Source: Candidatus Levybacteria bacterium RIFCSPHIGHO2_02_FULL_40_18 (GTDB lineage Bacteria > Patescibacteriota > Microgenomatia > Levybacterales > GWA1-39-11). Taken from it: a DNA stretch of 64,000 bases. The DNA lies in the NCBI GenBank assembly GCA_001782235.1, contig MFOC01000003.1, positions 47,851 through 111,850 on the forward strand, in the 5' to 3' direction. A program made the translations under genes and the position numbers. Within the stretch, counting starts at the first letter, position 1. Each line of letters starts with the position of its first letter. The notes below the pieces were generated by a model that worked only from the letters and a program-made list of their open reading frames with translations, searched no databases and was not told the DNA's origin. Of this stretch, positions 5,868-61,793 are shown one piece after another.

Positions 5868-6046
5868 CCTTTCGGCAAAAACCCAAACGACATCGCAATA
5901 ACTAGCCTTCCCGTAAGGGATTGTAAGTCCGCCGACGCTCTTTGAGCTTTGGCGAGACAAAGGGGGTGGTTATCAAGCCATAAAGCCATCGGCAAGCGAG
6001 GCAGAAATGCCTTGGACCTCAAGCGAACGCGCGTGAGGAAAACCCC

Positions 6047-6484: not shown

Positions 6485-6500
6485 CAAGGAGGAAGCTAAC

Positions 6501-6620
6501 ATGCTTCGAAGGTTGTTCCGCAAGACAAGCGAGCTCGGCCAAACGTTGGTGGAGTACGCCCTCATCATAGCACTGCTCGTGATCGCGGTATTAGCCTTCT
6601 ACCTCACGGACAGGGAATGA
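6501..6620 (+). CDS. flp: Flp/Fap family type IVb pilin (39 aa prepilin)
   Basis: ATG at 6501 is preceded by AAGGAGG (6486-6492). The sequence MLRRLFRKTSELG|QTLVEYALIIALLVIAVLAF matches the Flp motif G-x4-EY plus a hydrophobic helix (class III signal). Confidence 0.6.
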   Translation: MLRRLFRKTSELGQTLVEYALIIALLVIAVLAFYLTDRE

Positions 6621-6660
6621 ACCGTCCCGGGGGGCCATCGACTACTGGAAACTGGCACGG

Positions 6661-6849
6661 ATGCCTTCTACCCTTCAGGATACGCCTGAGGTGCAAACCC
6701 GCAAGGAGGCGGAATTGTCCCACAAACCAAAGCGGCAGCGACCCAAGCGTTCAAAAGACGTAAGGCTTCGTCGCCGTCTGGTGAAAATCAACGGTAACAA
6801 CGGTTCCGAAAAGCGGCGAACCAAGAAAGGCGGCAGACAAGGCGGATAA
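6661..6849 (+). CDS. Very basic Arg/Lys-rich small protein (hypothetical)
   Basis: KPKRQRPKRSKDVRLRRRLVK...KRRTKKGGRQGG. No recognisable family. Coding status is uncertain. Confidence 0.2.
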   Translation: MPSTLQDTPEVQTRKEAELSHKPKRQRPKRSKDVRLRRRLVKINGNNGSEKRRTKKGGRQGG

Positions 6850-7519
6850 GCACCGTAAGATAAACAAACCCTGCCGACATCATGAAACCGAGCGACGAAG
6901 ATTTTCTTTTGACTCTTCCACGAAGAGCAGTAAAGGAGGTACTAAAACTACTCAAAACGCGGCAAGAGCAACGGCGCCAACCTCATACGAACGGTAAGAC
7001 AGCGAAGGAGAAGGAATGGCCTAAAAGACACATTAGTTCCCGATAGCACTGGAAACCCCCGCCATGGAAAAAACCACGAAAACACTGTCTGAATGGTGGA
7101 TGGAAGCCGGTAGATACCGGAGGCTCTTCATCTTCAGGCAGAATATCCACTCCAATAAGCAAGAAGGAGGCAACGGTGCAAGGAAAAGGCCGAAACCACG
7201 GAAGAAGCAAGATCTCGATCAAAAGAGGTCTGGCTAAGACTCGCTACCCTCAGCGCTCTGGAAAACACCAAGCTGAGGCACGAGCCTTACGTGAAGGTCA
7301 CCCAAGCACCCCCTCGGGGAGGACGAATGGCAAAAAGACCGTTCAACGCAACGGGCGGCAAGCGCAAAGCCCGAAAGCCCCCGCCCCCGTGGCACCGTAA
7401 GTCCAAGAGACATCGGAAACGCCACGCGCGCGATCATGGGAACTTCGGGAACGTTCCGAGGAGAAGCCAGCTGTGATAACCATCGATACATAGTTTCATA
7501 GCGCACGGTAAGTGAATCC

Positions 7520-8590
7520 GTGGCAAAAAACGGCAAGTCAAAATCTTCAGAAAGGAAACGCAAAATGCCTGAAGAAACCGGAAATAGGAGTGGCACGCGA
7601 AGGCGAGCTGCTCGAACCACTCAGGCCCCGGCGCCGGCAGCGCCACCAGCCAACGGAGGGCAACCTCCAGCGGCACAGCCTCAAGAGGGAGGAAACATGC
7701 AACGCAGTCTGTTGTGGATACTTGTCATCCTCGCTGCAGTAGCGCTGGCGCTTGCTGCTTTCGCGGTAGGCCTGACCTTGGGTGACAAGGACGACTCGGA
7801 CGGCAGCTCGGCTACAGCCAGCAGTTCGTCAAGCTTAAGCTCCGCACCCGGCACCACCGGCGGCGGCGCCAGCAGCAACAACTCCGCTGACAACGGTCAG
7901 TCAGGCAAGAACGAATCGGAGTCCACGTCAACGGGAAGCTTTCCGACTCTCCCGAGCGATAAGTCCCACGGCGCGTGGAAGATCAAGACCGTAGCCGGCC
8001 TTGAAACATCCGGTGACCGTGTAGTCGCCGAATGGCTTGCGCGTCTGAAGGACCCGGCACCGAGGCTCTGGAAAACGTATCCCAACGTCCCCAACCCGGA
8101 TGTCGCGGACTTCAATGTAGCAGCAGGTGCCGAGTACGGTGTCGCCAACGTCCCGTTCTGTCAGCAGGACACGCGGTGCGACTTCGTGGTACCCGCATGG
8201 CACTACCGCCTGATTACCGCGGACTATGAGTTCCTCGGTCACAAGTGCGGAGGTAAGGGCAACGGATGCCTGCTCCTGCTCATCAACGTGATGGACAAGT
8301 CCTACACGTGGCGCAACCAGATCGCCGACAACGGCTTTTCGGTTCCGGGCAGGTACTGGGACGGTGACAAGCTCGAGTGGGCAGTTTGGGGCCTGGTCAG
8401 CCATGCGAGCGCTAACATGCTCAACTTGCCGACTACTGGCCTCGTGGGTCAGGTACTTAACGCTGGCACGCCCGGCAATGCAGGCGCTAACTGCGGCAAC
8501 GTCAACGGCTGCGGAAGCGTCGAGGTCATGGTCGTGGTGCACGCCGGCGATCGGATCCTGGCCACTGCCGAAACCACCGTTTCGCGGTAA
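7520..8590 (+). CDS. Membrane-anchored exported protein with a Ser-rich linker and a Cys-containing C-terminal domain (hypothetical). The true start may be the internal Met near 7697.
   Basis: Basic N-terminal tail, then TM LLWILVILAAVALALAAFAVGL, a Ser/Gly-rich low-complexity stretch, and a C-terminal globular region with several Cys. Confidence 0.35.
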   Translation: MAKNGKSKSSERKRKMPEETGNRSGTRRRAARTTQAPAPAAPPANGGQPPAAQPQEGGNMQRSLLWILVILAAVALALAAFAVGLTLGDKDDSDGSSATASSSSSLSSAPGTTGGGASSNNSADNGQSGKNESESTSTGSFPTLPSDKSHGAWKIKTVAGLETSGDRVVAEWLARLKDPAPRLWKTYPNVPNPDVADFNVAAGAEYGVANVPFCQQDTRCDFVVPAWHYRLITADYEFLGHKCGGKGNGCLLLLINVMDKSYTWRNQIADNGFSVPGRYWDGDKLEWAVWGLVSHASANMLNLPTTGLVGQVLNAGTPGNAGANCGNVNGCGSVEVMVVVHAGDRILATAETTVSR

Positions 8591-10381: not shown

Positions 10382-13300
10382 ATGGAATTTATCAAGCGTT
10401 TTATATTCCCGTTTCTTTTAGTTGTTTTAACAGTTTTTATATCTTTTCTAAACTATACTCCCGGAACCTTTCTTACAGGCTGGGATACTCTTCATCCTGA
10501 GTTTAATTTTGCGCAAAACTTCTCAAATATATTCTTCGGAGTTTTTAGAACCGATCAAGGTTTAGGGGCTGTTGCCGCGCATGCACATATGGCGGAACTT
10601 CCACGCCTAGTCTTATTATGGCTTTTTTCCTTCATCTTTCCTCTCTCATTCCTACGCTACTCTATTATATTTTTGTGTTTCATCCTAGGACCCTTGGGAG
10701 TCTACTTTTTCACGAAACGAGTCCTCAATCTCTACAACAATCTAACAATCGAACAATGGAGCAATTCAATTCCTGCTTTCCTTGCGTCCCTAATCTACAT
10801 CTTTAATCTTGGAACCGTCCAGCATTTTTATGTTCCTTTTGAGATGTTCACAATACAATATGCGGCTCTTCCTTGGCTCTTCTTAACAGCTTTAAGATTT
10901 ATAGAAAAGGGCACGAACTTGGCTCTTTTGTTATTTGCTATCGTAACACTTCTTGCTTCACCCATAGCCTATGCCTCGGTTCTATGGTACGCATACTTTG
11001 CATTTCTACTGTTGTTTCTTATCACATATTCAGTACTAAAACGGCAAAGAAAAGTTCTATTGCGAAGCCTATTCCTCGTCATAACTACCCTCGTCGTCAA
11101 TGCCTATTGGATTCTGCCAAATATGTATTTTTTGGCAAACGGTGCTAGTAATGTTTCCTTGGCCCAAACGAATAAAATTTTTTCAGATGAAGCTTTTCTA
11201 TACAACAAGGAGTATGGAAATATTTTGGATACGGCCATACTTCGAAACTTCTTATTTTCCTGGACGCAATCAAAAGACGTTCATACAACTGAAGACCTCC
11301 TTTCTGCCTGGAAAACGCATCTTAACAATCCTATTACTTTAACTATCGGGTACGCTGTTTTTGTCATAGTCTTGATAGGAATTTTAATCACCTTGATTAG
11401 GAAAAAGTCGATAGGAATAGCGTTTATCCCAGGCTTCCTGTTTTCCCTAATTATGGTTATGAACATGAACCCTCCTTTTGAAACTCTTTTTTCTTTTCTG
11501 CGAGAAACAAGCCCGATCTTTCGTGAAGCTTTAAGATTCCCATTTACGAAATTCTCAATCCTGCTTATGTTTTCTATGAGCTTCTTTTTTGCGGTTTGCT
11601 TGGCGCAAATCTTGAAAGCAGGGCAAAAGATAAAACCAGCCTATCTAAAAAGCGTCCTGCCTTTGGGAATTGCTTTAGTATTTTCAGCAAGTCTTGCATT
11701 TTATGGCGCGCCGATGTTCAAAGGCGAACTTATTAATCGCCAAATGAGAATTGCAATTCCACCTTACTACTTTGAATTATTTGACTATCTTTCCAAAAAA
11801 CCACAAGGTGCGCGCGTTGCCCCCCTACCGCTTCAATCCCTTTGGGGTTGGGAATACTATAACTGGCGCTATCAGGGAGCAGGTTTTATATGGTTTGGAA
11901 TTAAGCAGCCGGTTTTAGCCCGTGACTTTGACCGTTGGAACGCCCCCAACGAGCAGTATTTCCGCGAGATGTCTACTGCTGTCTATTCACGGGACGTAGG
12001 CCAGATTGAGGCCTTAGCTCGCAAATACAGAATTTCATATTTTCTTTTGGATGAAAGCGTTGTTTTTCCGGGCTACAAGCAAAATGCACTTTGGCATTAT
12101 GAGACGCACGATACTTTTAAAAAATCACGCCACATAAAACTTGAGAAACAGTTCGGATATCTTTATCTTTATAAAGTTGATGAATTTTTGACCGGCGAAG
12201 GCTACGTGCAACAACCGCAAAATATAATATCTGTGGCACCGCAAATTACAGGTGGATTTGTTGATCTTGCGACACAAAATCATGGCGATTACATTACTTT
12301 AGAAGAACCGGATTTCACTTATTTTTCGCGCTCTTTTGTTGATCGTTATGATCGAGTAGATCCTGCAAATATCAGTTTCTTAGGAGATAAACTCATCTTA
12401 AGACTTGGTAAGAATAAGGGATATAGCCTTACGGATTCATGGAAGTCTAATGATATTTTTCCCGAGTTTATGAGGAATTCTTATGATTTATCAATTGAAG
12501 AACAGGGCAATCCTTTCATAGTTGATGATGAACAATTCATTTTCTTTCCAGCAACATCAAGTCCTGTTAATGTCTCGGCTTCCCTTGAAGTGCCGGAGAA
12601 CTGTGGAGGAGCTTTACAAAGTTCAAAATCTCGCGTTATAAGACTTACTGACGCGGTTGCCTTCATAGCAAGGAATGGATCATCGTGTGGTTTTATTACA
12701 TTTTCAAGCGCAAAACAGGATTTTGGAAGTATCCTAATAATTGAAGCGAGAAATCTTAAGGGGTTGCCAACAAGACTTTGTATTAGCGAGAATATTACCG
12801 AGAGATGTGGAATTTACACTGCCCTTGACCCTGGAAATTCTTGGAAGAGATATGTTTTCATAATTCCACCCCTACCATCAGGGGGAAGTGGCTATGCAGT
12901 GCATTTCAATACGGTTGGAATCGGCAATGAGGAAAGCGAGAATGAGATCAGGTTCGCACAGCTTATCCAAATTCCTTATTATCGCATCGCAAATCTCTCT
13001 TTTGTTAAGAACGGGTACGTACTCAAAACAAATGGCGTTTCAATTATATCATCGCTTGAGATCAATCCTACTCTCTACACTACTCTTATCTCCGCTAAAA
13101 ATAATGAGGACGGTCTTATTGCCTTGTTCAAGGCCTTTGATCCGGGGTGGCAAGCTTATCAAGTCAATGTCAAATGTCAAATGTCAAATGTCAAATGTTC
13201 GCTTGCTATGGCTCTTCCCTTTTTATTCGGAAGCGAAATTGGCGAGCATGTTGAGGTGAATGGCTGGGCTAACGGCTGGCTCCTAAATTCGATCAATGAT

Positions 13301-13432
13301 CAAAGATCTAAGATCAAAGATCTAATTGTGATCGTCTATCTTCCCCAGTATCTTGAGTATGCTGGATTCGCTATTCTTATAATAACATTTTGTGTATTAT
13401 CGGGTAGAGTTCTTTTAAAGAGGAGTGAATAA
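10382..13432 (+). CDS. Large polytopic membrane protein (1016 aa) with a big extracytoplasmic C-terminal domain. Putative GT-C-type glycosyltransferase (AftD/DUF3367-like).
   Basis: More than 12 predicted TM helices in the first ~480 aa, followed by a ~500 aa soluble domain and a C-terminal TM. The family assignment is by architecture only. Confidence 0.5.
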   Translation: MEFIKRFIFPFLLVVLTVFISFLNYTPGTFLTGWDTLHPEFNFAQNFSNIFFGVFRTDQGLGAVAAHAHMAELPRLVLLWLFSFIFPLSFLRYSIIFLCFILGPLGVYFFTKRVLNLYNNLTIEQWSNSIPAFLASLIYIFNLGTVQHFYVPFEMFTIQYAALPWLFLTALRFIEKGTNLALLLFAIVTLLASPIAYASVLWYAYFAFLLLFLITYSVLKRQRKVLLRSLFLVITTLVVNAYWILPNMYFLANGASNVSLAQTNKIFSDEAFLYNKEYGNILDTAILRNFLFSWTQSKDVHTTEDLLSAWKTHLNNPITLTIGYAVFVIVLIGILITLIRKKSIGIAFIPGFLFSLIMVMNMNPPFETLFSFLRETSPIFREALRFPFTKFSILLMFSMSFFFAVCLAQILKAGQKIKPAYLKSVLPLGIALVFSASLAFYGAPMFKGELINRQMRIAIPPYYFELFDYLSKKPQGARVAPLPLQSLWGWEYYNWRYQGAGFIWFGIKQPVLARDFDRWNAPNEQYFREMSTAVYSRDVGQIEALARKYRISYFLLDESVVFPGYKQNALWHYETHDTFKKSRHIKLEKQFGYLYLYKVDEFLTGEGYVQQPQNIISVAPQITGGFVDLATQNHGDYITLEEPDFTYFSRSFVDRYDRVDPANISFLGDKLILRLGKNKGYSLTDSWKSNDIFPEFMRNSYDLSIEEQGNPFIVDDEQFIFFPATSSPVNVSASLEVPENCGGALQSSKSRVIRLTDAVAFIARNGSSCGFITFSSAKQDFGSILIIEARNLKGLPTRLCISENITERCGIYTALDPGNSWKRYVFIIPPLPSGGSGYAVHFNTVGIGNEESENEIRFAQLIQIPYYRIANLSFVKNGYVLKTNGVSIISSLEINPTLYTTLISAKNNEDGLIALFKAFDPGWQAYQVNVKCQMSNVKCSLAMALPFLFGSEIGEHVEVNGWANGWLLNSINDQRSKIKDLIVIVYLPQYLEYAGFAILIITFCVLSGRVLLKRSE
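13163..13198 (+). repeat. Heptanucleotide tandem repeat (tcaaatg x4 plus a partial copy) inside the 1016-aa membrane protein CDS
   Basis: gtcaatgtcaaatgtcaaatgtcaaatgtcaaatgttc encodes VNVKCQMSNVKCS. The unit length of 7 is not a multiple of 3. Confidence 0.8.
13291..13333 (+). repeat. In-frame palindromic mini-element (aagatctaagatcaaagatctaat) inside the 1016-aa CDS. It is homologous to the insert in pth.
   Basis: gatcaatgatcaaagatctaagatcaaagatctaattgtgatc encodes INDQRSKIKDLIVI. Compare 21459-21495 in pth, which encodes DPRSKIQDLI. Confidence 0.6.
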
Positions 13433-13670
13433 GTAACGAATAGAAGATCACACAAAATATTGTTTGTCAAGAGGGTAATTTAATCTCCCCAAGTTTTCCA
13501 CATTTTCTCTAAGTAATTTAAAACAGTTTGATAATTCAGTCTAAATTGATTATAAAATTACTCTGGGTCTATCATTTTTGGAGCGGAAAAAAGCTATAGG
13601 TTGCATTATTTCGAGATTTTATGCTATACTTTATTCAGTGTCTAAGATTTAAGATTTAAGATTTAAGAAA

Positions 13671-15127: not shown

Positions 15128-16618
15128 TCAACTAGAGGCTGATCCGTCTTTGGCGGAAATAATTACATCCTGTAGAAACTTAAATTTCTCACTTGTTATT
15201 ATATTTTTAAATCCAAATTTTTTGGCTTCTTTCATCCGCTGTTTTATGTTACTCACTTCTTTTAGTTCTCCAAGGAGTCCTATCTCTGCTATGGCAACTG
15301 CGTTGATGGGCTTGTTTTTAAATGATGAAACTAGGGCGAGACAAGCAGCCAAATCTCCCGCAGTCTCGGTGATTCTAAGACCTGAGACAACATTCACATA
15401 AACATCAAAACGATCAAGGGGTATTTTTGCATGTTTTTGCATAACGGCAAGAAGAAGTTCGATTCTTGTTGATGCTATTCCGTTTGACACGCGTCGAGGG
15501 TACGAGAGATTTGATGGAACAACTAATGCTTGGATTTCGCAAAGCAATGGCCGCGTGCCCTCCATAACAACCGTAAGGCAAGATCCGGGCACGCGCTTTT
15601 TATTCTTATCCATGAAAAATCCCGAATCACGAACCTCTACAATTCCCCGCTCTTCCATTGCGAAGATCCCGACCTCCGATGAGTCTCCGAATCTGTTTTT
15701 AAATGCGCGCAAAATCCTTGTCGAGCTGTCGGTTTGCCCCGATTTGATCGGGGTTGATGCGCAAGACTCAAGATATAAAACACAATCAACCATGTGGGAG
15801 AGCGACATGGGGCCTGCAACCTCTCCCTCTTTTGTCACGTGTCCGATGATAAAAACAGGGACTCCATTCTTCTTGGCAAAAGAAACAATCCTTGAGGTCG
15901 CGTGTCTAATCTGAGGAAGGGATCCGGCAAAACCCGGCACATTATCGCTTGCCATTGCTTGAATGGAATCAATAATTAATAGATCTGGATTAATTTTTTG
16001 CGCTGCCACAATTACGCTTTCTAGGTTCCCGTTTGAAAAAATAAAGAGATTGTCGCTCTCCTTGACTCCAATTCTTTCTGCGCGAATCTTAATCTGACCC
16101 TCAGATTCCTCCCCGCTCACATACAACACTCTGTTCTCGGTTTTCGGTTTTCGGTTTTCCGTTCCCTGTTTACCTGTTTTCAGTTTGTCTGTTTTTAAAA
16201 CTGAACGACCGACAACTGACTGACTGGAGTCTGACAACTGAGAACTGAGAACCGATAACTGGGAAGCGCCATGAGTGATGTTTTTTGCAAGTTCAAGAAG
16301 AAGTGTGGATTTTCCAACGCCGGGATCTCCGGACAAAAGGACCGCAGAACCGGCCACAATTCCTCCTCCCAAAACCCTATTGAACTCGGAAAATCCAGTT
16401 GAAATTCGAGAAGCGGCTTCACTTTTTACCTTACCAATTTGTATAGGAACGCTTGATGCAAAATCAAGGCTTGTAGATGTTTTTGAAGGAGCTTCAACTT
16501 TAAACTCGGAAAACGTATTCCATGCCTGACACGAGGGACACCTACCGTACCACTTACTCGATTCATAACCACACGCCGAACAAATAAACGCCGTTCTTTT
16601 CATAAATTCAAAAATCAA
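15128..16618 (-). CDS. radA: DNA repair protein RadA/Sms (Zn finger, RecA-like ATPase and Lon-like domains) carrying an in-frame ~45 aa low-complexity insertion
   Basis: N-terminal CxxC...CxxC. Walker A GDPGVGKSTLLLEL, then ...VLYVSGEES. KNGVPVFIIGHVTKEG. A C-terminal Lon-like region. The segment between Walker A and VLYVSGEE is expanded (ITHGASQLSVLSSQLSDSSQSVVGRSVLKTDKLKTGKQGTENRKPKTENR). Confidence 0.85.
   Translation of the reverse strand: MIFEFMKRTAFICSACGYESSKWYGRCPSCQAWNTFSEFKVEAPSKTSTSLDFASSVPIQIGKVKSEAASRISTGFSEFNRVLGGGIVAGSAVLLSGDPGVGKSTLLLELAKNITHGASQLSVLSSQLSDSSQSVVGRSVLKTDKLKTGKQGTENRKPKTENRVLYVSGEESEGQIKIRAERIGVKESDNLFIFSNGNLESVIVAAQKINPDLLIIDSIQAMASDNVPGFAGSLPQIRHATSRIVSFAKKNGVPVFIIGHVTKEGEVAGPMSLSHMVDCVLYLESCASTPIKSGQTDSSTRILRAFKNRFGDSSEVGIFAMEERGIVEVRDSGFFMDKNKKRVPGSCLTVVMEGTRPLLCEIQALVVPSNLSYPRRVSNGIASTRIELLLAVMQKHAKIPLDRFDVYVNVVSGLRITETAGDLAACLALVSSFKNKPINAVAIAEIGLLGELKEVSNIKQRMKEAKKFGFKNIITSEKFKFLQDVIISAKDGSASS
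16125..16265. repeat. MITE-like imperfect inverted-repeat element inserted in frame within radA
   Basis: The arms ctcggttttcggttttcgg...ctgttttcagtttgtctgttttt | aaaactgaacgaccgacaactgactg...gagaaccgataactgg are inverted copies of each other. A related copy is intergenic at 25945-26090. Confidence 0.5.
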
Positions 16619-16706
16619 AAGTCAAAGGTCAAAAGTTAAAGTAAAAAGTGTTAAAAACTTTTAAATTTTGAATTGCAATTTTGAATTTTGCATTTTGACT
16701 TTTGAC
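16619..16706. promoter_or_regulatory. Palindromic AT-rich spacer between the S1-protein gene and radA. Likely terminator and promoter region.
   Basis: aaaatcaaaagtcaaaggtcaaaagt ... acttttgacttttgac form an inverted repeat around a central aaatttt core. Confidence 0.3.
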
Positions 16707-17975
16707 TTATCTGTAGCCGATAGGTATTGCTTTCAGGATTGGCGAGAGGATAATTACGCGGCGCCTACCATCAAAGTCAACAACAACGGCTTCAACGTCC
16801 TGCCCCACATCATATGTTGTGCCGGAAGGAATTTTGTCCGAGGGAATAAATCCATTGACGCCCCCTCCGGGCCGGAGGCCCTCAGGGCCGGAGGCATCTT
16901 CAATTGCAAGGGTTATTCCGCGGGTTTTAACCTCAGTCACCGTTCCGCGAACCTTCTCTTCGACTTTGTATTTGTTTCGAACGTTTGCAAATACATCTTC
17001 TAGTGTCTTTTTAATTGAAAGATTTACTCTTCTATTCGCTGTGTCAATCTCAAGAACTTCTGCCTTTATTTTACCTCCGACTTTATATGATGCCCCTAAG
17101 TTCTCCACGCGCGCATAGGAAATCTCAGATATGTGAACAAATCCTTCGACAACAGCTTCCCCTTTCCCTCCTGGGCCGGAGGCCTGCTCTCTGAGTCCCG
17201 AGGCTCTCCGAGTCGGGGACCGGGCCGGAGGCTCAATTTTTACGAAAAGTCCGTAAGGTGCAACCTCTGTGATCTCAGCTTCTATAATTTCGCCGGGCTT
17301 AAGAAGCGCTTTTATAGAATCGATATTTGTGAGAAAAAAGGTTGCTTTCTCTGAAAAAACGGCTCGTTTTTTAGAACGATCATATTCAAGTATTTTAACT
17401 TTTATTTTTGCGCCCGGACCAATAGATTCTTGGGAAAGTATCTGTGAGGCCGGCAAAAATCCGCGAACTCCTTCTCCTGTCAATGTAAAATATCCGCCAC
17501 GGGTAGGCTCCGCAACTTCAACCTCAAAAGCTTCATCGCGGCGAGCCAAATCTTCAAACTTATTAAAGATAATATCGTCAAGCATTCGACGCAGGGAAAC
17601 AACCGGAAAACCTTCTTCTGATTCTGGCGAAATAACAGTTGCCGTAACGCGGTCCCCAACCTTAAGATTTGCTAATAGATTCTCCAAGTTTTGCTTATCA
17701 AATTCAATTACTAAAGCGTCTCCCTTAGCCCCGATGTCCATTAAAATCTCTTGTGGGGTGAGTTTTTTGATAATACCTGAAACAGCCTGCCCTTTCTGAA
17801 GAACCTGGAAAAACGAGCCTTGTTTGGCCATTAACTCGCCCATCGAGGAAGCTGGCTTCCGAGACCCTGAGCTTGTCGAACGGGTTAACTCAGCCATCGA
17901 GCCCGCAGGCTTGCCCTGAGCTTGTCGAACGGGTTTAGAAGAGTTTTTTGTTTTCGGTTTTAAGTTGTCTACCAC
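16707..17975 (-). CDS. S1 RNA-binding domain protein (ribosomal protein S1-like, about four S1 repeats). It carries two in-frame GC-rich inserts and an N-terminal tandem duplication.
   Basis: Repeated S1 motifs (GDRVTATVISPE..., GAKIKVKILEYD..., GEIIEAEITEVAPYGLFVKI, GGKIKAEVLEIDTANRRVNLSIK, VRGTVTEVKTRGITLAIED). The N-terminus has a 45-bp tandem duplication (KPVRQAQGKPAGSMAEL / RKPASSMGEL). Confidence 0.6.
   Translation of the reverse strand: MVDNLKPKTKNSSKPVRQAQGKPAGSMAELTRSTSSGSRKPASSMGELMAKQGSFFQVLQKGQAVSGIIKKLTPQEILMDIGAKGDALVIEFDKQNLENLLANLKVGDRVTATVISPESEEGFPVVSLRRMLDDIIFNKFEDLARRDEAFEVEVAEPTRGGYFTLTGEGVRGFLPASQILSQESIGPGAKIKVKILEYDRSKKRAVFSEKATFFLTNIDSIKALLKPGEIIEAEITEVAPYGLFVKIEPPARSPTRRASGLREQASGPGGKGEAVVEGFVHISEISYARVENLGASYKVGGKIKAEVLEIDTANRRVNLSIKKTLEDVFANVRNKYKVEEKVRGTVTEVKTRGITLAIEDASGPEGLRPGGGVNGFIPSDKIPSGTTYDVGQDVEAVVVDFDGRRRVIILSPILKAIPIGYR
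16867..16895. repeat. GC-rich direct-repeat mini-element (gggccggaggc cctca gggccggaggc) inserted in frame in the S1-protein gene. It encodes ASGPEGLRPGG.
   Basis: The 11-mer gggccggaggc occurs twice, separated by cctca. Copies lie at 17171-17233 and 61217-61252. Confidence 0.65.
17171..17233. repeat. Second, expanded copy of the gggccggaggc element in the S1-protein gene. The two 11-mers are separated by 39 bp.
   Basis: ctgggccggaggcctgctctctgagtcccgaggctctccgagtcggggaccgggccggaggctc encodes EPPARSPTRRASGLREQASGPGG. Confidence 0.6.
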
Positions 17976-19737: not shown

Positions 19738-20385
19738 TTGTATAATATAAGAGAAATGGAGTTTTTGGTACCGCTTGTTATCTTAATCTTTTCTGCGATG
19801 CTGCATGAAGTAATGCACGGCGTGGTCGCCAATAGGTTGGGTGATCCGACCGCAAAGCTTATGGGGAGACTAACCCTTAATCCCATTCCACACCTTGACC
19901 CGATGATGAGCATTCTCTTACCTGCTCTTTTGGTTTTGTCAGGATCACCGGTTATCTTTGGCGCTGCAAAACCGGTCCCTGTAAACCCAATACATTTCCG
20001 CGATCCAAAAAAAGACATGGCATTGACAGCCCTTGCTGGGCCTTTGACGAATGTGTTTCTTGCCGTATTTACGGCCCAAATTATTAAGCTTATTCCCTCC
20101 GGGGCAGACCCCCTCTGGGGCGGCGCCCTCTCATCCTTCTTATATCTCGTCGTGCTATATAATTTAATGCTTGCAATAATTAATTTAATTCCCATCCCCC
20201 CACTTGACGGAAGCAAGGTTGTAGCGGCAATTATGCCAGATGATTTAGCTAAATCTTACTTATCAATTCAGCAATTTGGTATATTTATTTTATTCTTTTT
20301 GTTGCTCTTCCCCATCGGCGACTTTTCCCTGGGCAGACTCATTAGCAACTTAATTTTCTTCTCGATAAACTTACTTGGAATATGA
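19738..20385 (+). CDS. Site-2 protease family (M50) membrane metalloprotease
   Basis: HExxH motif (LHEVMHGVVA). NLIPIPPLDGSKV motif. Multiple TM helices. Confidence 0.6.
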   Translation: MYNIREMEFLVPLVILIFSAMLHEVMHGVVANRLGDPTAKLMGRLTLNPIPHLDPMMSILLPALLVLSGSPVIFGAAKPVPVNPIHFRDPKKDMALTALAGPLTNVFLAVFTAQIIKLIPSGADPLWGGALSSFLYLVVLYNLMLAIINLIPIPPLDGSKVVAAIMPDDLAKSYLSIQQFGIFILFFLLLFPIGDFSLGRLISNLIFFSINLLGI

Positions 20386-21285: not shown

Positions 21286-21903
21286 ATGAAGTTAATAGTC
21301 GGTCTGGGAAATCCCGGAGAAAAATACCAAAATACCCGCCACAATATTGGTTTTATGGCGCTGGATTCTCTTTTGGAAAAATTCGAGCCGGTCGAAAAAA
21401 CATTTTGGGAAGAAAAAAAGAATCTTAAGTCCAATATTAAACACATTAAGTTTAGTATCCAGGATCCAAGATCTAAGATCCAAGATCTAATCCTTGCCAA
21501 ACCCACTACTTTTATGAATGCCTCGGGATTTGCGGTTTCAAAGGTTTTAAATTATTACAAAATCGAACCGGTCGAGATGATAGTCATTCATGATGATTCG
21601 GATCTGCTTTTAGGGAAAATTCGAGTGCGATTTGGGGGCGGCTCTGGCGGCCACAAGGGTGTCGCTTCAATTATCGAAACTATTCAAACAGACCAATTTT
21701 TGCGCGTAAGGCTTGGGATCGGCCGGTCGGAGGATGAGAAACTTGGTAAAAAAAGACACAAGAAGCTTGACAGATATGTCCTTGGCTCTTTCTCACCGGC
21801 TGAACGCGGGCACGTTAAAACTATGATTCGCGAAGCGACACGTGCAGTCGAGTTAATCCTTGAGCACGGCCTCGAAGTATACATGAGCAAATACAACAAG
21901 TAG
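21286..21903 (+). CDS. pth: Peptidyl-tRNA hydrolase with a short in-frame repeat-element insertion
   Basis: MKLIVGLGNPGEKYQNTRHNIGFMALD is a canonical Pth N-terminus. The insert KFSIQDPRSKIQDLILAKP is encoded by a palindromic repeat. Confidence 0.9.
   Translation: MKLIVGLGNPGEKYQNTRHNIGFMALDSLLEKFEPVEKTFWEEKKNLKSNIKHIKFSIQDPRSKIQDLILAKPTTFMNASGFAVSKVLNYYKIEPVEMIVIHDDSDLLLGKIRVRFGGGSGGHKGVASIIETIQTDQFLRVRLGIGRSEDEKLGKKRHKKLDRYVLGSFSPAERGHVKTMIREATRAVELILEHGLEVYMSKYNK
21459..21495. repeat. In-frame palindromic mini-element (ccaggatccaagatctaagatccaagatctaatcc) inside pth
   Basis: It contains two BglII-type agatct palindromes. A homologous element lies at 13291-13333. Confidence 0.6.
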
Positions 21904-25944: not shown

Positions 25945-26090
25945 AGGTCAGTTGTCAATTGTCAGTTCTCGGTTGTCGGTTGTCAGATAGCTGTTTATCT
26001 GTTCTCTGTTTGTCAGTTTTTAAACAGACTGACTGAAGACCGACAGACTATAATCCGAAAACAGAAAACGGAGAACCGATAACGGTATCG
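25945..26090. repeat. Intergenic copy of the MITE-like inverted-repeat element also found inside radA
   Basis: cagttctcggttgtcggttgtcag...ctgtttgtcagtttttaaacagactgactgaagaccgacag...gagaaccgataacgg shares its blocks with 16125-16265. Confidence 0.45.
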
Positions 26091-27333: not shown

Positions 27334-27370
27334 AAGCTAGAATGTAGAATTTGAAGTTAGAAAGTAGATA

Positions 27371-27733
27371 TTAGAAAGTTTTCCAGTTGTTTCGTAAATT
27401 ATTGAGTTTACCGCCTAGGTAAGAGTAGCGCTTAAGTAAATCTTCGCATAAATTCTTGTTCCAATAGTTTAAATCTCGCGCGGTCTCGATATGCACCTCC
27501 ATTTCGTTTGCTGAACCAATCGCTGCATCAAGGTGTCTTTTAAATTCCTTTTCAAATCTCCTTTTGGCCCAACCCTCAGCTATGTTTGATGGACAAGACT
27601 TTGATGCTCTTCTCATTTGAGAAGCAAGGTCGTTTCTCTCATATACCGGAAGCTTTTTAACTTCTTTATGAACTATTATCATTAGCTCGTAGCTTTCTTT
27701 ATAAACCTCGAGGTCTCTGAATGTCTTTATCAC
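27371..27733 (-). CDS. Four-helix-bundle protein (TIGR02436, 23S rRNA intervening-sequence protein family). Intact copy flanked by inverted word repeats.
   Basis: EVYKESYELMIIVHKEVKKLPVYERNDLASQMRRASKSCPSNIAEGWAKR. Flanks: gaatttgaagttagaaag (27334-27370) and its inverted counterpart cttcaaattccagcttctaat (27760-27800). Confidence 0.65.
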   Translation of the reverse strand: MIKTFRDLEVYKESYELMIIVHKEVKKLPVYERNDLASQMRRASKSCPSNIAEGWAKRRFEKEFKRHLDAAIGSANEMEVHIETARDLNYWNKNLCEDLLKRYSYLGGKLNNLRNNWKTF

Positions 27734-36977: not shown

Positions 36978-37017
36978 GCTTATATTTCTACCGGAACATA
37001 GTGTTATTATTAATGCG

Positions 37018-42720: not shown

Positions 42721-42723
42721 AAT
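42610..42723. repeat. 114-bp direct repeat R2 (right boundary of the cassette). The minus strand encodes ...STPTFVFDNYIVSKIE*
   Basis: Near-identical to R1 (36864-36977). Confidence 0.7.
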
Positions 42724-55366: not shown

Positions 55367-56620
55367 TTATCTTACCATCTTTATGCTTTTTACGCGATTT
55401 AAGAAAACCCAAATTATCGTATAAATCACCTGTTTGTCTAAAAAAACCATTACCTTTCTAAAAAAGGGCTCCGGCGATAAATAGAATAAATTTTTAAAAC
55501 GCTCAATTCCCGAATTAATCCTTTGTTCTTCATCAAATATATTTAGCTTATAAAGCATTTTTCGAACTCTGGCAAAACTGCTATCAGGTCTAATGTCATT
55601 CAGAAAATCACGATCAAAATTTAGTCCGTAGTATTTTTGCAAGATAAGAAAAACAGGATATATGAAATTCATAAGCTTATATTCTTTAGCGAGTTTTGCA
55701 ATTTTAGAAAAATTTTGTTGTTCTTTTGAAATAATGCTCTTCATAAAATCATATCTATAAGCCCCTTTAAAATTATGATGGTAAAGATGAAGGGCTAGAT
55801 AAATTAATAAGTTTTCAGAAGAAAGAATTGGAAATTTATGACTCCAAACACTAACATCTCTTTTTTCTCTTAGAAATTTTCCACTTAAACTATTCAAAAG
55901 ACTCTGCGGGTAAAGAGCATTAAGTTCCCCAAGTTGTGTCATCATAAATACAACCTCAAGATGAATATCGAAAAAGATTGGAAATCCTTTAACTATTTTC
56001 AAGAAATTAACTTCCGGACTTTTATTTTTAAGTCTTCCCAGAGTCTCGGACAATGATGAGTCGAATTCTTTGAAGCCTAATTTTCGTAAAATCGTCTTTG
56101 CGCGAGAAAAAAATTTTGGGCTAATTAAAATGTCGCAGTCGGCATAAATGCGTCTCGGGTGCTTGCCCTCATGGTAAAGGTGGAGAGGCAGACCTTTGAG
56201 AAAAACGAATTTTATTCCTGTCTTCTCAAGCGTTCTTTTAACTTTTACTATTTCGCCAAAATATAGTGTTGATTGAATAAGATAAAGGTCGTCGATGCTA
56301 AATTCGTTCCTTCCCCTTTTTATTTTATATACAACACCGATTACGTTTTTTGGGTAAATCTTCCCATCGGAAGTTTGATTATTCTCCCCTTTTGTTATTA
56401 AGTACTTATCTGTTTTGTAAACCACTCTGTGGGTGAAGATCCTGTCGCCCTGCCTGCCGGCAGGCAGGCCTTTTCGCACGCAGACAATATCATTAACGGC
56501 AATTCTGTCAAATCGTTTTTTTGCAAGATAAACGACGTCGCCGTCCCAAAGTAGCGGGAACATACTCTCACCGTAAGTCTTAAACGCAGAAATCTTTGAA
56601 ATATTTGCAACCTTAATCAC
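55367..56620 (-). CDS. Fusion protein: N-terminal S24/S26-type peptidase-like domain plus an uncharacterised nucleotidyltransferase (PF14907-like) domain
   Basis: N-terminus YGESMFPLLWDGDVVYL is LexA/signal-peptidase-like (GxSMxP). The remaining ~300 aa resemble the uncharacterised nucleotidyltransferase family found in RiPP clusters. Confidence 0.4.
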   Translation of the reverse strand: MIKVANISKISAFKTYGESMFPLLWDGDVVYLAKKRFDRIAVNDIVCVRKGLPAGRQGDRIFTHRVVYKTDKYLITKGENNQTSDGKIYPKNVIGVVYKIKRGRNEFSIDDLYLIQSTLYFGEIVKVKRTLEKTGIKFVFLKGLPLHLYHEGKHPRRIYADCDILISPKFFSRAKTILRKLGFKEFDSSLSETLGRLKNKSPEVNFLKIVKGFPIFFDIHLEVVFMMTQLGELNALYPQSLLNSLSGKFLREKRDVSVWSHKFPILSSENLLIYLALHLYHHNFKGAYRYDFMKSIISKEQQNFSKIAKLAKEYKLMNFIYPVFLILQKYYGLNFDRDFLNDIRPDSSFARVRKMLYKLNIFDEEQRINSGIERFKNLFYLSPEPFFRKVMVFLDKQVIYTIIWVFLNRVKSIKMVR

Positions 56621-59716: not shown

Positions 59717-60142
59717 TCATTCTAAACTCCTCAGGTACTGCAAAAATTGCGCAGGCCTCATAGTTATAATGTTTAAATCTTCTTTTATCTTATCGGTGTT
59801 GAAATCTTTTTGATTATAAGTGATGAGAAATTTAGCTTTTGACTTATATGCTCCCGCTACGATATGCGCGTCATTTGAATCTTCAACAAAGTTATTATAT
59901 TTTTCCCTTATTTTCTTAAGTGAACTTTTAATCTCAATCTTTAAGAATCTTCTCTCAATAAGCTCTTTCAGGTCTTGCTCTTTTATATTCAGTTCTTTTG
60001 ACACCCTTTTTAACTCCTCCAAAGATATATTTGAAATAAAACGATTGGCACCGCTTTTATGAATAAGGGAATAGGCAGCGCCTGTTTTTGACAGAAGAGA
60101 AGAAATTACAACATCTGAATCAATAAAGACTGTTGGGGTCAT
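59717..60142 (-). CDS. PIN-domain (VapC-like) putative toxin
   Basis: N-terminal VFIDSDVVISSLL with the conserved Asp. About 140 aa. Confidence 0.55.
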   Translation of the reverse strand: MTPTVFIDSDVVISSLLSKTGAAYSLIHKSGANRFISNISLEELKRVSKELNIKEQDLKELIERRFLKIEIKSSLKKIREKYNNFVEDSNDAHIVAGAYKSKAKFLITYNQKDFNTDKIKEDLNIITMRPAQFLQYLRSLE

Positions 60143-60146: not shown

Positions 60147-60410
60147 TTAAGCCGCCCGGGCTTTTTTAAGATATTGCCGCACGCGCGGTATAACTTTCAT
60201 GTCTTCTTGTTCTTTAGAAAATAAATCATAGTCAAGCCCTGTGATCATAAATGATACGGAACTTGCGGGAATTCTATACACACGGCCAAGTTTTTTAGCA
60301 ACAATCTCCCCTCGAGCGATAAGCTCATAAACCGTATTTTTTGATAATTGAAGGGCCTCGGCAATTTGTTCGGGGGTATACATTTTTACAATATTAGCAT
60401 TACTTATCAT
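60147..60410 (-). CDS. HTH (excisionase/MerR-type) DNA-binding protein. Putative antitoxin of the PIN protein.
   Basis: YTPEQIAEALQLSKNTVYELIARGEIVAKKLGRVYRI. 4-nt gap to the downstream PIN gene. Confidence 0.5.
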   Translation of the reverse strand: MISNANIVKMYTPEQIAEALQLSKNTVYELIARGEIVAKKLGRVYRIPASSVSFMITGLDYDLFSKEQEDMKVIPRVRQYLKKARAA

Positions 60411-60464: not shown

Positions 60465-61793
60465 TTACCTGGGGTAAAGTTTGCCAAGGATTTGATGCAG
60501 GTTATATGTAAACTTATTAAAAGCAGGCGCTATTCTTTGAGGCCATTTGATTTCATCCTCCCCGTAGCGTCTGCTTTTAAAGAGGAAATTGTTGGGAAAC
60601 GCACCGGTTTGTTTTGTGGTATATGGACTTACAATGTCCCATACAACCTCACCTTTGTTGGTTACTTCGAATATATGTCCCCTAGTCCCGTCAGTGATTA
60701 GCGTATTTCCATTTGAAAGTCTTTGCGCGCCCCCTACGATTGGCGCATAAAATTTAATTTTGTCAATTGGCCCCTCTCCTGCATCAAACTGCCATACAAC
60801 TTTGTTTGTTTTGGGGTTCACTTCAACTGCCCTTGATCCGAAACTCGGAAATGGCGCCGGGAGCCTATCATACCCGTTATCAAATACAAGAATGTTTCCG
60901 TTTTCAAGCAATGTCGGGTCATGCTGAAGGCTGAACATTCCTTTTGGAGATCGCCAGATTATTCCCCCGTCTTCTTTTCGAATTATATAAACAGTACTAG
61001 TTGTCCGCATGCTTAAAAGATACGCAGGTGTGCCATCGATAGGATTTTTTTCCATATACTTCAACCCGTTAGTGTAGGTCCATCCGTACCGAGGCAGAAG
61101 CGGGGCAATTACGTCCATTTGCGGATCCATATGCTCATATGAGTGCCAAGACCAAACAGTCTCTCCTTTTCGATTTATCTCGACTATATTATCCGACCAA
61201 ATGAGACCGCCTTCCCCGCCGGGCCGGAGACCCTCTGGGCCGGAGGCCATCTCTGTACCATCAACGCCACCTTGAATTTGCCTTGCGATCTCAGGTGGTG
61301 TTTTCTCCCAGAGAGCAAAAGCAAGGTTTCCGTTAGGCAGTATTGCGACATCATGATGCATTGCCTCATTCTTATATTCCCAAACCACATTCGATTTCCA
61401 GTCAAGTTCTTGAATAATTCCGGTATTGCCTCCCGGAGGGAAAAACTGGCTATATTTTGGCTGCTCCATTACCGAGAGTAATTTCCCGTCAGGCTCAAGA
61501 ACCGAGTACAGAACCTGATGATTGGTTGTCCATGTATGTACGGGGTAGCCCGCCATATCGAGTAAATAAACTTTGCCCTCGATTTTTGAATCGCTTAAAA
61601 GACGGTTATATGGAGAAATTAACGTGTAGCCCGGAAAGACCTTTTCCTCATCGAGAATCGGCAGTGATTTAAAGATGCTGTATGAATTGTCTATGGGTTT
61701 GAAAACGAATATGAAAGTCAGTATGTAAACTGCGCCTAAAATCAATAGAATATAAAGAAGTTTTTGAGGAGGATTAAAACCTTTGTTTTCCAC
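60465..61793 (-). CDS. Membrane-anchored beta-propeller protein, arylsulfotransferase (ASST)-like. It carries an in-frame GC-rich insert.
   Basis: N-terminal TM. Repeated hydrophobic-Gly blades (NGNILVFDNGYDR, NGNTLITDGTRGHIFEVTNKGEVVWD). Insert EMASGPEGLRPGGEGG at 61217-61252. Confidence 0.4.
   Translation of the reverse strand: MENKGFNPPQKLLYILLILGAVYILTFIFVFKPIDNSYSIFKSLPILDEEKVFPGYTLISPYNRLLSDSKIEGKVYLLDMAGYPVHTWTTNHQVLYSVLEPDGKLLSVMEQPKYSQFFPPGGNTGIIQELDWKSNVVWEYKNEAMHHDVAILPNGNLAFALWEKTPPEIARQIQGGVDGTEMASGPEGLRPGGEGGLIWSDNIVEINRKGETVWSWHSYEHMDPQMDVIAPLLPRYGWTYTNGLKYMEKNPIDGTPAYLLSMRTTSTVYIIRKEDGGIIWRSPKGMFSLQHDPTLLENGNILVFDNGYDRLPAPFPSFGSRAVEVNPKTNKVVWQFDAGEGPIDKIKFYAPIVGGAQRLSNGNTLITDGTRGHIFEVTNKGEVVWDIVSPYTTKQTGAFPNNFLFKSRRYGEDEIKWPQRIAPAFNKFTYNLHQILGKLYPR
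61217..61252. repeat. Third copy of the gggccggagRc x2 GC-rich in-frame mini-element
   Basis: ccgccgggccggagaccctctgggccggaggccatc. Confidence 0.6.

What the first reader, a model, noticed from the sequence alone, without database searches (positions are those of the whole stretch)
16867..17233. GC-rich mini-repeat (gggccggagRc x2) inserted in frame three times, encoding SGPEGLRPGG-like peptides in unrelated proteins
The same GC-rich module, which stands out in a ~37% GC genome, occurs twice in the S1-domain protein gene (16867-16895 and 17171-17233; the latter has 39 bp between the two 11-mers) and once in the ASST-like gene (61217-61252). Each time it is in frame and adds ASGPEGLRPGG / EQASGPGG / SGPEGLRPGG to the protein, between recognisable domain blocks. 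This implies a mobile or recombinogenic short repeat that is tolerated in coding sequence.
Basis: seen in the sequence. Interest (0 to 1): 0.65.

Follow-up and report, generated by a model that had tools for sequence, protein, structure and literature searches.

The report
33-base GC-rich palindrome inserted in genes
A 33-base GC-rich, self-complementary DNA module that is scattered through the genomes of tiny groundwater bacteria (and found between genes in other phyla) has landed in frame inside essential genes here, adding 11 floppy amino acids to surface loops, much like the "selfish DNA in genes" known from Rickettsia and yeast mitochondria.

Summary
GGGCCGGAGRC occurs six times exactly, against 0.76 expected.

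The true unit is a 33-nt module, CCCTCC-GGGCCGGAGGC-CCTnn-GGGCCGGAGGC, made of two 16-nt palindromic units plus one base.

- **Window copies.** It lies at 16863-16895 (S1 protein) and 61215-61247 (ASST-like protein). A 66-nt composite at 17166-17231 carries 38 nt of other GC-rich DNA between the two 11-mers.
- **Insertions, not ancestral loops.** Site 1 is absent from 18 S1 orthologues. The ASST copy is absent from 47 of 48 orthologues. Both are exactly 33 nt, codon-aligned, and without target-site duplication. In an AlphaFold model both S1 inserts are disordered loops inside S1 domains, not between domains.
- **Wider distribution.** The same 33-mer occurs in frame in FtsA, NrdJ, EF-G, a beta-lactamase-like protein and a glycosyltransferase of other low-GC, Patescibacteria-like contigs. 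It also occurs between genes, including in MAGs labelled Desulfobacterota and Verrucomicrobiota.
- **Signs of turnover.** Unit number varies between samples. FtsA orthologues 91-94% identical differ in presence or absence.
- **Related family.** A related 33-nt module sits in frame in the M50 protease gene (20095-20127).

This is a new variant of a known kind, comparable to Rickettsia RPEs and yeast mitochondrial GC clusters. The spreading mechanism is unknown.

The parts
16863..16895 (-). Module A, canonical 33-nt copy (CCCTCC GGGCCGGAGGC CCTCA GGGCCGGAGGC on the + strand). It is translated from the - strand as ASGPEGLRPGG, residues 361-371 of the S1 protein.
   Evidence: It is absent from 18 orthologues. 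The empty site in L068 reads GAG GAG|GGC GTT. Residues 361-371 have pLDDT <50 and lie between strands E353-358 and E374-378.
17166..17231 (-). Composite 66-nt copy. The two module-A 11-mers (17173-17183 and 17222-17232) are separated by 38 nt of a different GC-rich hairpin sequence. It is translated as PPARSPTRRASGLREQASGPGG, residues 249-270 of the S1 protein.
   Evidence: Orthologues carry other, unrelated inserts or none in this loop. Residues 253-272 have pLDDT <50 and lie between E242-247 and E276-281. The inner 38 nt was found nowhere else in the fetched DNA. An analogous nested composite occurs in FtsA of L073.
61215..61247 (-). Module A, 33-nt copy of the CCCGCC...CCTCT subfamily, with GGAGAC in the first 11-mer. 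It is translated as ASGPEGLRPGG, residues 183-193 of the ASST-like protein.
   Evidence: It is absent from 47 of 48 orthologues. The empty site in L067 reads GAG ATG|AAG GAT.
20095..20127 (+). Related 33-nt module of a second family (B): CCCTCCGGGGCAGACCCCCTCTGGGGCGGCGCC. It is in frame in the M50 peptidase gene and reads PSGADPLWGGA.
   Evidence: The same family is nested inside module A in FtsA of L073 and is intergenic in L045. The orthologue in L072 is 6 aa shorter here, so this is not a clean 11-aa gap.
16707..17975 (-). Host gene: four-S1-domain RNA-binding protein (ribosomal protein S1-like). The true start is probably near M45.
   Evidence: Pfam S1, E = 1.5e-32. Orthologues. Alternative start calls.
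60465..61793 (-). Host gene: arylsulfotransferase (ASST)-like beta-propeller protein.
   Evidence: Pfam PF05935 and PF14269. Orthologues.
19738..20385 (+). Host gene of the family-B module: peptidase M50 family membrane protease.
   Evidence: Pfam PF02163. Orthologue in L072.

Best explanation
**What it is.** The GGGCCGGAGRC pairs are copies of a 33-nt GC-rich, self-complementary DNA module. It consists of two 16-nt units, CCCTnn-GGGCCGGAGG, plus one base. It belongs to a set of short dispersed palindromic repeats in Levybacteria and other Patescibacteria. The same module also occurs between genes in MAGs labelled Desulfobacterota and Verrucomicrobiota.

**What is shown.**
- The window copies are lineage-specific insertions.
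- They are exactly 33 nt (66 nt for the nested composite), codon-aligned, and have no target-site duplication.
- They sit in surface loops and are read through as Gly/Pro-rich peptides that an AlphaFold model predicts to be disordered.

**What is inferred.**
- The module behaves as non-autonomous selfish DNA. New copies arise by a copy-in process that needs no target duplication.
- Candidate processes are hairpin- or ssDNA-dependent transposition, or microhomology/template-switch and gene-conversion repair.
- There is a preference, or a survivorship bias, for hairpin apices, for the centre of another module, and for purine-rich codon tracts.
- Copies persist inside genes only because the element suits coding sequence. 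Its length is a multiple of three. It is stop-free in five of six frames for each spacer variant seen in coding copies. The commonest frame gives an innocuous flexible peptide.
- Slippage between the two tandem units changes unit number.
For: **Non-random repeat.** The 11-mer gives 7 matches against 0.76 expected.

**Derived insertions with exact boundaries.**
- S1 site 1 is absent from 18 orthologues.
- The ASST copy is absent from 47 of 48 orthologues.
- Codon-level empty sites were recovered.
- FtsA in L074 against L076 is a clean 33-nt insertion.
- NrdJ shows an 11-residue gap against structure 1xje.

**DNA-level identity.**
- 27 distinct copies share CCCTCC plus the module. The hexamer was not part of the search pattern.
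- The 11-mer is read in three frames.

**Dispersed distribution.**
- Intergenic copies are frequent and often lie 12-30 nt from ORF ends.
- The module occurs in MAGs labelled as three phyla.
- In-frame hosts are FtsA, NrdJ, EF-G, a beta-lactamase-like protein, a GT1 glycosyltransferase, a methyltransferase C-terminus and a large membrane protein.

**Turnover.**
- The same locus has 2 units in L056/L059 and 4 in L047. The module is duplicated in L055 but single in L060.
- FtsA carries the module in three lineages whose close relatives (91-94% identical) lack it.
- Nested composites occur in S1 site 2 and in FtsA of L073.

**Tolerance in proteins.**
- Both S1 inserts are low-confidence loops between beta strands.
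- A stop appears only in frame -0 with spacer AT or AC, and in frame -2 with spacer CA. Spacers AT and AC occur in intergenic copies but in none of the six coding copies read in frame -0.
Against: - No mobilising enzyme, donor copy or transposition intermediate was identified.
- No conserved target motif was found.
- Within the window species the inserts are fixed. All cluster members carry them.
- The 11-mers' invariance across phyla is partly imposed by the exact-match search pattern, so it cannot be read as conservation.
- RNA folding is no more stable than shuffled sequence of the same composition, with z from -1.8 to +0.85 for the window copies.
- Intergenic copies close to gene ends, and near-identity across phyla, would also fit a functional motif.
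- Two sites are not clean insertions. FtsA of L008 gains a net 7 aa and M50 a net 6 aa, each replacing a few codons.
- Phylum labels of MAG contigs were not verified independently.
Confidence: 0.72

Rival explanations
1. The module is a functional nucleic-acid motif, and its spread reflects recruitment rather than selfish mobility. It could be a protein-binding site, an mRNA 3'-end stabiliser or terminator hairpin, or a translation-pausing element based on its Shine-Dalgarno-like GGAGG. Coding copies would then modulate expression or co-translational folding at loop positions.
For: - Intergenic copies often lie 12-30 nt from ORF ends.
- In L016 the module sits at the apex of a longer hairpin that folds better than shuffles, z = -2.7.
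- The same subfamilies occur in MAGs labelled as different phyla.
- The module contains GGAGG on both strands (sequence).
Against: - Both orientations occur relative to flanking genes.
- No Rfam family matches.
- The window copies fold no better than shuffles.
- Most orthologues of S1, ASST and FtsA lack it, so it is not needed for those genes.
- Copies decay by point mutation (L074, L073).
- Unit number varies.
Confidence: 0.15
2. The 33-mer is a footprint or minimal remnant of a larger element. The two 11-mers would be its termini. The composites, with 38 nt or a family-B module between the 11-mers, would be less-reduced forms, and the 5-nt spacer would be what remains after the internal part is excised.
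For: - In the composites the extra DNA lies exactly between the two 11-mers.
- The only freely variable positions of the canonical module are the two central spacer bases.
Against: - The internal sequences of the two composites are unrelated to each other.
- One of them is itself a dispersed 33-nt module found alone elsewhere, which fits nesting better.
- No longer element bounded by the 11-mers was seen in any locus.
- The variable-gap version of the search was not run.
Confidence: 0.07
3. The segments are ordinary protein loops. They would be ancestral or convergently selected Gly/Pro-rich linkers, and the DNA similarity would follow from the peptide and from codon choice.
For: - Six of about ten coding loci use the same frame, ASGP(E/K)GLRPGG.
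- The three differences between the S1 and ASST copies are all synonymous in that frame.
Against: - The segments are absent from nearly all orthologues.
- The same 11-mer is read in three frames within one gene.
- Identical DNA occurs in intergenic regions, in the opposite orientation and in other frames.
- GC-rich codons are atypical for a 40% GC genome.
Confidence: 0.03
4. The copies are an assembly or sequencing artefact, or each arose independently by local microsatellite-like expansion.
For: - The module is a tandem of a 16-nt unit, and unit number changes between samples.
- All carriers found are metagenome assemblies.
Against: - The same in-frame inserts recur in independent assemblies and projects. 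The S1 protein is found on 20 or more contigs. L054 matches the window, L046 matches L062, L049 matches L053, and L048 matches L052.
- Reading frames of essential genes are preserved.
- A 33-nt identity at unrelated loci cannot arise by local expansion.
Confidence: 0.03

Closest known systems
Rickettsia palindromic elements (RPEs; Ogata et al. 2000 Science, 2002 Genome Res, as summarised in PMC10969869)
   Same: Both are palindromic repeats inserted in frame into many unrelated, often essential genes. Both are translated, located at surface positions compatible with the fold, and also found intergenically. Both are lineage-specific in presence or absence.
   Different: RPEs are about 100-150 bp, are not GC-rich islands, and are restricted to Rickettsia. 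The module here is 33 nt, consists of two tandem 16-nt palindromic units, and is found in Patescibacteria and in MAGs labelled as other phyla. There is no sequence relationship.
Yeast and fungal mitochondrial GC clusters (e.g. GC42; PMC4478555) and the related 'byp' elements
   Same: Both are short (about 30-60 nt) GC-rich palindromes that stand out in an AT-rich genome. Both show sporadic distribution, rapid turnover, transfer between species, and merger or nesting into composite elements. The nested copies here are at S1 site 2 and in FtsA of L073. From my own knowledge, GC clusters can also sit in frame in coding sequence (var1).
   Different: GC clusters are mitochondrial, not bacterial, and belong to different sequence families. 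Putative target-site duplications are reported for GC clusters (PMC4478555), and none is seen here. Byps are skipped by the ribosome. Here the absence of stop-bearing variants from coding copies argues for ordinary translation.
REP / REPIN elements mobilised by RAYT transposases (PMC3733652, PMC3116915)
   Same: Both are 20-40-nt GC-rich imperfect palindromes. Both are mostly extragenic near gene ends and can be arranged as doublets that form a longer hairpin. Neither makes a target-site duplication.
   Different: REPs carry a conserved GTAG or CGTC tag (PMC3733652), and this module begins with CCCTCC. REPs are typically species-specific and extragenic. Here the same sequence is seen across phylum labels and inside genes. 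No RAYT gene could be looked for.
Bacterial MITEs found intragenically (ERIC, RU-1/2/3, Coxiella QMITE; PMC2759123, PMC5896051, PMC10969869)
   Same: Both are small non-autonomous repeats that occasionally form in-frame fusions with host ORFs.
   Different: MITEs are 50-500 bp with terminal inverted repeats and target-site duplications. This module is 33 nt and has no TSD at any of the resolved junctions.

Membership tests
REP/REPIN (RAYT-associated) | Short (20-40 nt) imperfect palindrome able to form a hairpin | tested here: met
   The 33-nt module folds as one imperfect hairpin, with CCUCCGG pairing to CCGGAGG and so on. Each 16-nt unit contains the 15-nt palindrome CCTCCGGsCCGGAGG (sequence).
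REP/REPIN (RAYT-associated) | Conserved GTAG or CGTC tetranucleotide at one end (PMC3733652) | tested here: not met
   All 27 copies start with CCCTCC, CCCGCC or a variant and end with GGAGGC. None carries a GTAG or CGTC tag.
REP/REPIN (RAYT-associated) | A RAYT (IS200/IS605-like Y1 transposase) gene in the same genome | not testable with these tools
   Only a 64-kb window and short loci were available.
MITE | Target-site duplication flanking the element | tested here: not met
   Filled and empty sites were compared for S1 (window vs L068), ASST (window vs L067) and FtsA (L074 vs L076). None shows duplicated flanking bases.
MITE | Length about 50-500 bp with terminal inverted repeats derived from an IS | tested here: not met
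   The element is 33 nt. It is self-complementary overall, but no IS with matching ends was seen. There were no hits in plasmids, phages or viral contigs.
Rickettsia palindromic elements | In-frame insertion in unrelated protein-coding genes, translated, at fold-compatible positions | tested here: met
   Insertions occur in S1, ASST, FtsA, NrdJ, EF-G and others. The S1 inserts are low-pLDDT loops between strands. Translation itself is inferred, not observed.
Rickettsia palindromic elements | About 100-150-bp element of one of the RPE sequence families, in Rickettsia | tested here: not met
   The element is 33 nt with an unrelated sequence. The host is Candidatus Levybacteria.
Mitochondrial GC clusters | Short GC-rich palindrome in an AT-rich genome, with sporadic distribution and merger or nesting of clusters | tested here: met
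   The modules are among 13 short GC-rich islands (at least 76% GC over 30 nt) in a 40% GC window. Presence and absence vary among relatives. Nested composites occur.
Mitochondrial GC clusters | Resident in fungal mitochondrial DNA and member of the described GC-cluster classes | tested here: not met
   The context is a bacterial chromosome.
IS200/IS605-derived palindrome-associated elements | Insertion next to a conserved 4-5-nt target, without TSD | tested here: inconclusive
   There is no TSD, which is consistent. No conserved flanking tetra- or pentanucleotide was found among about 25 loci. Flanks are only biased towards pyrimidine-rich CTTC or TTTC 5' of CCCTCC.

The most novel reading that the evidence does not exclude
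The 33-mer and its sister families, such as family B, would be among the smallest mobile DNAs known. They would be protein-compatible hairpin modules that move between loci and across bacterial phyla without target duplication. They would insert preferentially into hairpin apices, including the centre of other modules, and into purine-rich loop codons. They would be driven by an as yet unidentified trans-acting enzyme or repair pathway, and would be a significant source of loop insertions in the proteins of Patescibacteria.
Probability: 0.3. Interest if true: 0.75.

Novelty: new variant of a known kind. Interest (0 to 1): 0.6.

Why it matters
**Protein evolution in reduced genomes.** Patescibacteria (CPR) have small, streamlined genomes. 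Finding selfish-looking GC-rich palindromes written into the loops of S1, FtsA, EF-G and ribonucleotide reductase shows that even their core proteins are being remodelled by repeat insertion. The only well-known bacterial precedent is Rickettsia.

**A limit case for mobile DNA.** A 33-nt unit shared by genomes labelled as different phyla raises the question of how so small a sequence can be copied and transferred.

**Practical consequences.** These modules create lineage-specific indels that can mislead alignment, gene calling and phylogenetic markers. They explain odd Gly/Pro-rich segments in CPR proteins. They could also serve as strain-level markers.

Tried and rejected
- **Known RNA family.** Rfam found nothing at eight intergenic loci or anywhere in the window.
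- **Literature.** Searches for the 11-mer, the peptides, related repeat-derived peptides, and Patescibacteria together with palindromic repeats gave nothing relevant.
- **Phage or plasmid vector.** There were 0 hits in viral contigs and 0 in phages. Plasmids gave only chance-level partial hits in high-GC replicons.
- **Exceptional RNA stability.** The window copies fold no better than shuffles. Stability is compositional.
- **Strain-level presence/absence in the window species.** All cluster members of S1 and ASST carry the inserts.
- **The 20094-20127 site as a decayed copy of module A.** Rejected. It is a distinct family (B) with its own copies elsewhere.
- **Other copies of the inner 38 nt of the composite.** None was found in any fetched DNA.
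- **High-GC hits in the genome scan.** Most of the 44 hits are tandem repeats in high-GC genomes and were set aside as noise.
- **Neighbouring genes of intergenic copies.** They were listed but not annotated, because no recurrent neighbour was apparent from sizes and positions.
Full report
**1. Observation**

The 11-mer GGGCCGGAGRC occurs exactly six times on the + strand: at 16869, 16885, 17173, 17222, 61221 and 61237. There is one 1-mismatch site at 33199. A dinucleotide-preserving shuffle expects 0.76 matches, and none of 100 shuffles reached 7 (sequences).

The window is 40% GC, and these sites are among 13 short GC-rich islands (at least 76% GC over 30 nt) in it. The host genes run on the - strand. 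They are a four-S1-domain protein at 16707..17975 and an arylsulfotransferase-like protein at 60465..61793. The S1 protein is 100% identical to a protein of Candidatus Levybacteria bacterium RIFCSPHIGHO2_02_FULL_4..., a member of the CPR/Patescibacteria.

**2. The real unit**

I aligned 27 distinct copies recovered from the window and from public contigs. They give the consensus CCCTCC-GGGCCGGAGGC-CCTnn-GGGCCGGAGGC, 33 nt.

- The module is two tandem 16-nt units, CCCTnn-GGGCCGGAGG, plus one base.
- Each unit contains the 15-nt palindrome CCTCCGGsCCGGAGG.
- The whole module folds as one imperfect hairpin.
- The CCCTCC hexamer was not part of my search patterns, so its conservation is independent evidence of homology. 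It is CCCTCC in 19 of 27 copies and CCCGCC in 5.
- The invariance of the 11-mers, by contrast, is imposed by the exact-match pattern and must not be read as conservation. Diverged copies do exist (L074, L073).

The window copies are:

| Coordinates | Length | Notes |
|---|---|---|
| 16863-16895 | 33 nt | Canonical module in S1 |
| 61215-61247 | 33 nt | CCCGCC...CCTCT subfamily, in ASST |
| 17166-17231 | 66 nt | Composite: two 11-mers separated by 38 nt of a different GC-rich hairpin sequence |

Coordinates and lengths were checked.

**3. The copies are insertions**

- In an alignment with 18 orthologues, ASGPEGLRPGG is present only in the window protein.
- Codon-level comparison with the orthologue in L068 gives an exact 33-nt insertion, GAA GAT|33 nt|GGC GTC against GAG GAG|GGC GTT.
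- In the ASST-like protein the 11 residues are absent from 47 of 48 orthologues. The empty site in L067 reads GAG ATG|AAG GAT.
- No flanking bases are duplicated at any resolved junction.
- The second S1 site lies in a loop where orthologues carry nothing or other unrelated GC-rich inserts. One example is ...SRPELVEG in L068.
- One ASST orthologue, P0123, has a different 20-aa P/A/S/G-rich insert at the same loop.
- Within one gene the 11-mer is read as ASGP, GLRP and PPAR. What is conserved is therefore DNA, not peptide.

**4. Position in the proteins**

An AlphaFold2 model of the S1 protein has mean pLDDT 73.5. Apart from the termini, the only internal segments of ten or more residues below pLDDT 50 are 253-272 and 361-371, which are the two inserts. 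Each lies between two beta strands of an S1 domain: E242-247/E276-281 and E353-358/E374-378. The inserts are therefore in the equivalent hairpin loop of two successive S1 domains.

**5. Distribution elsewhere**

*Genome scan.* A scan of one genome per species returned 44 loci. Most are tandem repeats in high-GC genomes and count as noise. The same 33-mer appears in:
- a Levyibacteriota MAG (L008), in frame in FtsA;
- a Patescibacteria MAG (L012), where it forms the C-terminal tail of a methyltransferase;
- intergenic regions of MAGs labelled Thermodesulfobacteriota, Deltaproteobacteria, Desulfobacteraceae and Desulfonatronospira (L016, L021, L028, L033);
- a Verrucomicrobiota MAG, with two copies on a 158-kb contig of 57% GC (L020, L024).

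*Metagenome scan.* This gave 21 more loci at 36-46% GC.

*In-frame hosts.*

| Host protein | Locus | Evidence |
|---|---|---|
| Class II ribonucleotide reductase (NrdJ) | L049/L053 | Exact 11-residue gap against T. maritima 1xje |
| EF-G | L063 | |
| Beta-lactamase-family protein | L057 | |
| GT1 glycosyltransferase | L058 | |
| 782-aa protein | L046/L062 | |
| 1218-aa membrane protein | L048/L052 | |

*Intergenic copies.* They commonly lie 12-30 nt from ORF ends, in either orientation. They often sit at the centre of a longer local inverted repeat or between heptamer repeats.

*Negative searches.* Nothing was found in viral contigs, phages or plasmids, in Rfam, or in the searchable literature.

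**6. Evidence of turnover**

- The same locus has two units in L056/L059 and four in L047. The module plus its flank is duplicated in L055 relative to L060.
- FtsA carries the module at the same acidic loop in three lineages:
  - P0246/L008, variant CCCACT...CCTCG;
  - P0253/L073, a composite with a family-B module nested in the spacer;
  - P0257/L074, a variant with the same G>A change in both 11-mers.
- Orthologues 91-94% identical to P0246 lack the module, as does P0270, which has the same flanking sequence as P0257.
- L074 against L076 is a clean 33-nt insertion.
- In L008 the module replaces about four ancestral codons, for a net gain of 7 aa.
- Within the window species the inserts are fixed.

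**7. A second family**

The sequence at 20095-20127 is CCCTCCGGGGCAGACCCCCTCTGGGGCGGCGCC. It is in frame in the M50 protease gene and reads PSGADPLWGGA. It has the same architecture as module A but different 11-mers. Near-identical sequence is nested inside module A in FtsA of L073 and occurs intergenically in L045. The M50 orthologue in L072 is only 6 aa shorter here, so this is not a clean gap.

Together with the composite at S1 site 2, this shows that the modules nest at each other's centres. The same behaviour has been described for yeast mitochondrial GC clusters (PMC4478555).

**8. Why the copies are in frame**

- 33 nt is a multiple of three.
- A six-frame table shows a stop only in frame -0 with spacer AT or AC, and in frame -2 with spacer CA.
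- Six of about ten independent coding loci use frame -0, reading ASGP(E/K)GLRPGG. The binomial p is about 0.006, or about 0.03 after allowing for any of five frames.
- The stop-bearing spacers AT and AC occur in intergenic copies but in none of the coding copies read in frame -0.

This is what a translated element filtered by selection should look like. It argues against splicing or ribosomal bypass. Flanks of coding copies are mostly purine-rich codons (GAA, GAG, AAA). That could reflect microhomology with the pyrimidine-rich CCCTCC end, or simply that E/K-rich surface loops tolerate insertions. I cannot separate the two.

**9. Mechanism**

Shown: the copies are secondary, precise, TSD-free, dispersed, variable in unit number, and nested.

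Inferred: the module is a non-autonomous selfish palindrome. It would be copied either by hairpin- or ssDNA-dependent transposition or by template-switch/gene-conversion repair.

No enzyme, donor or target motif was identified. A functional role, such as a 3'-end hairpin, a binding site or SD-like pausing, is not excluded (about 0.15).

**10. Comparison and novelty**

The element works like Rickettsia palindromic elements (reviewed in PMC10969869) and like mitochondrial GC clusters (PMC4478555). It fails the defining features of REPs (no GTAG or CGTC tag; PMC3733652), of MITEs (no TSD, too short) and of RPEs (size, sequence, host).

I rate it a new variant of a known kind. The notable points are its size (33 nt), its occurrence in core genes of CPR bacteria, and near-identical copies in genomes labelled as different phyla.

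Noticed in passing
window 16151-16258 (RadA gene 15128..16618, - strand) and window ~25959-26083: RadA carries a 36-aa (108-nt) in-frame insert made of heptamer-like repeats forming a palindrome. The insert and its flanks align over about 126 nt at 76% identity with an intergenic element near 26 kb. It is absent from the RadA orthologues in L068 and L070. L072 has a different low-complexity insert at the same place. A second, AT-rich repeat type is therefore also written in frame into a core gene.
   Followed up: yes
window 17865-17886 and 17914-17935 (5' end of the S1 ORF): CCCTGAGCTTGTCGAACGGGTT occurs twice, identically, 49 nt apart. In the annotated N-terminal extension it reads KPVRQAQGKP. 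Several orthologues start at MAELMA, and other gene calls start at M27. The extension may therefore be an untranslated repeat-bearing leader rather than protein. Similar 'FDQTQGKP' strings occur in orthologue N-termini and as a loop insert in P0013.
   Followed up: partly
window 59618-59717 vs 60510-60609, flanking ORFs 59717..60142 and 60147..60410 (- strand): A 100-nt copy (91% identity) of the 3' end of the ASST-like gene lies 892 nt downstream. The two copies bracket an HTH_17 (excisionase-type) gene and a PIN-domain gene. This looks like a toxin-antitoxin-like cassette inserted at the ASST 3' end with duplication of the target.
   Followed up: partly
window 56449-56468 (ORF 55367..56620, - strand): A perfect 20-bp GC palindrome, CCTGCCTGCCGGCAGGCAGG, lies in frame and reads GLPAGRQG. 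Similar GCCTGCCGGCAGGCAGG sequences occur in related Levybacteria loci (L067 ~6315-6356, L070 ~2090-2143). This is probably yet another GC-rich module family.
   Followed up: no
L066 2051-2086 (ASST orthologue P0123); A1 alignment (S1 orthologues P0004, P0005, P0009, P0010, P0013): The same loops that host module A in the window host unrelated GC-rich inserts in other Levybacteria. Examples are PASPGASPGGPLSPTAPAAG in ASST, GVPALNERKRVEGSRPELVEG and GGPRLRDGELV in S1 site 2, and KPFDQPQGKPDVGEV in S1 site 1. These loops are either insertion hot spots or the only tolerated positions.
   Followed up: partly
window 6001-8000: This stretch has 57% GC and an unusually strong AT skew (+0.34). It contains 18-nt tandem repeats at 6180-6302 that would encode Thr/Pro-rich linkers. 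Its composition differs from the rest of the window.
   Followed up: no
window 36921-36992, 42667-42738, 47543-47614, 48603-48674: A 72-nt sequence is repeated four times at 74-100% identity, several kb apart. One pair extends to 130 nt at 92%. Its function was not examined.
   Followed up: no
window 13292-13326, 13633-13667, 21457-21491, 1981-2020, 27350-27375, 16612-16708: Many intergenic heptamer-type tandem repeats occur (AAGATCT/AAGATTT, TTAGATA, AAAGTCA), often as inverted pairs. In other genomes the same kind of heptamer arms flank intergenic copies of module A (L016, L045, L050, L051, L033).
   Followed up: partly
window 1-64000: No Rfam family reached its gathering score anywhere in the 64 kb. 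That means no tRNA, rRNA, riboswitch or other curated RNA.
   Followed up: no
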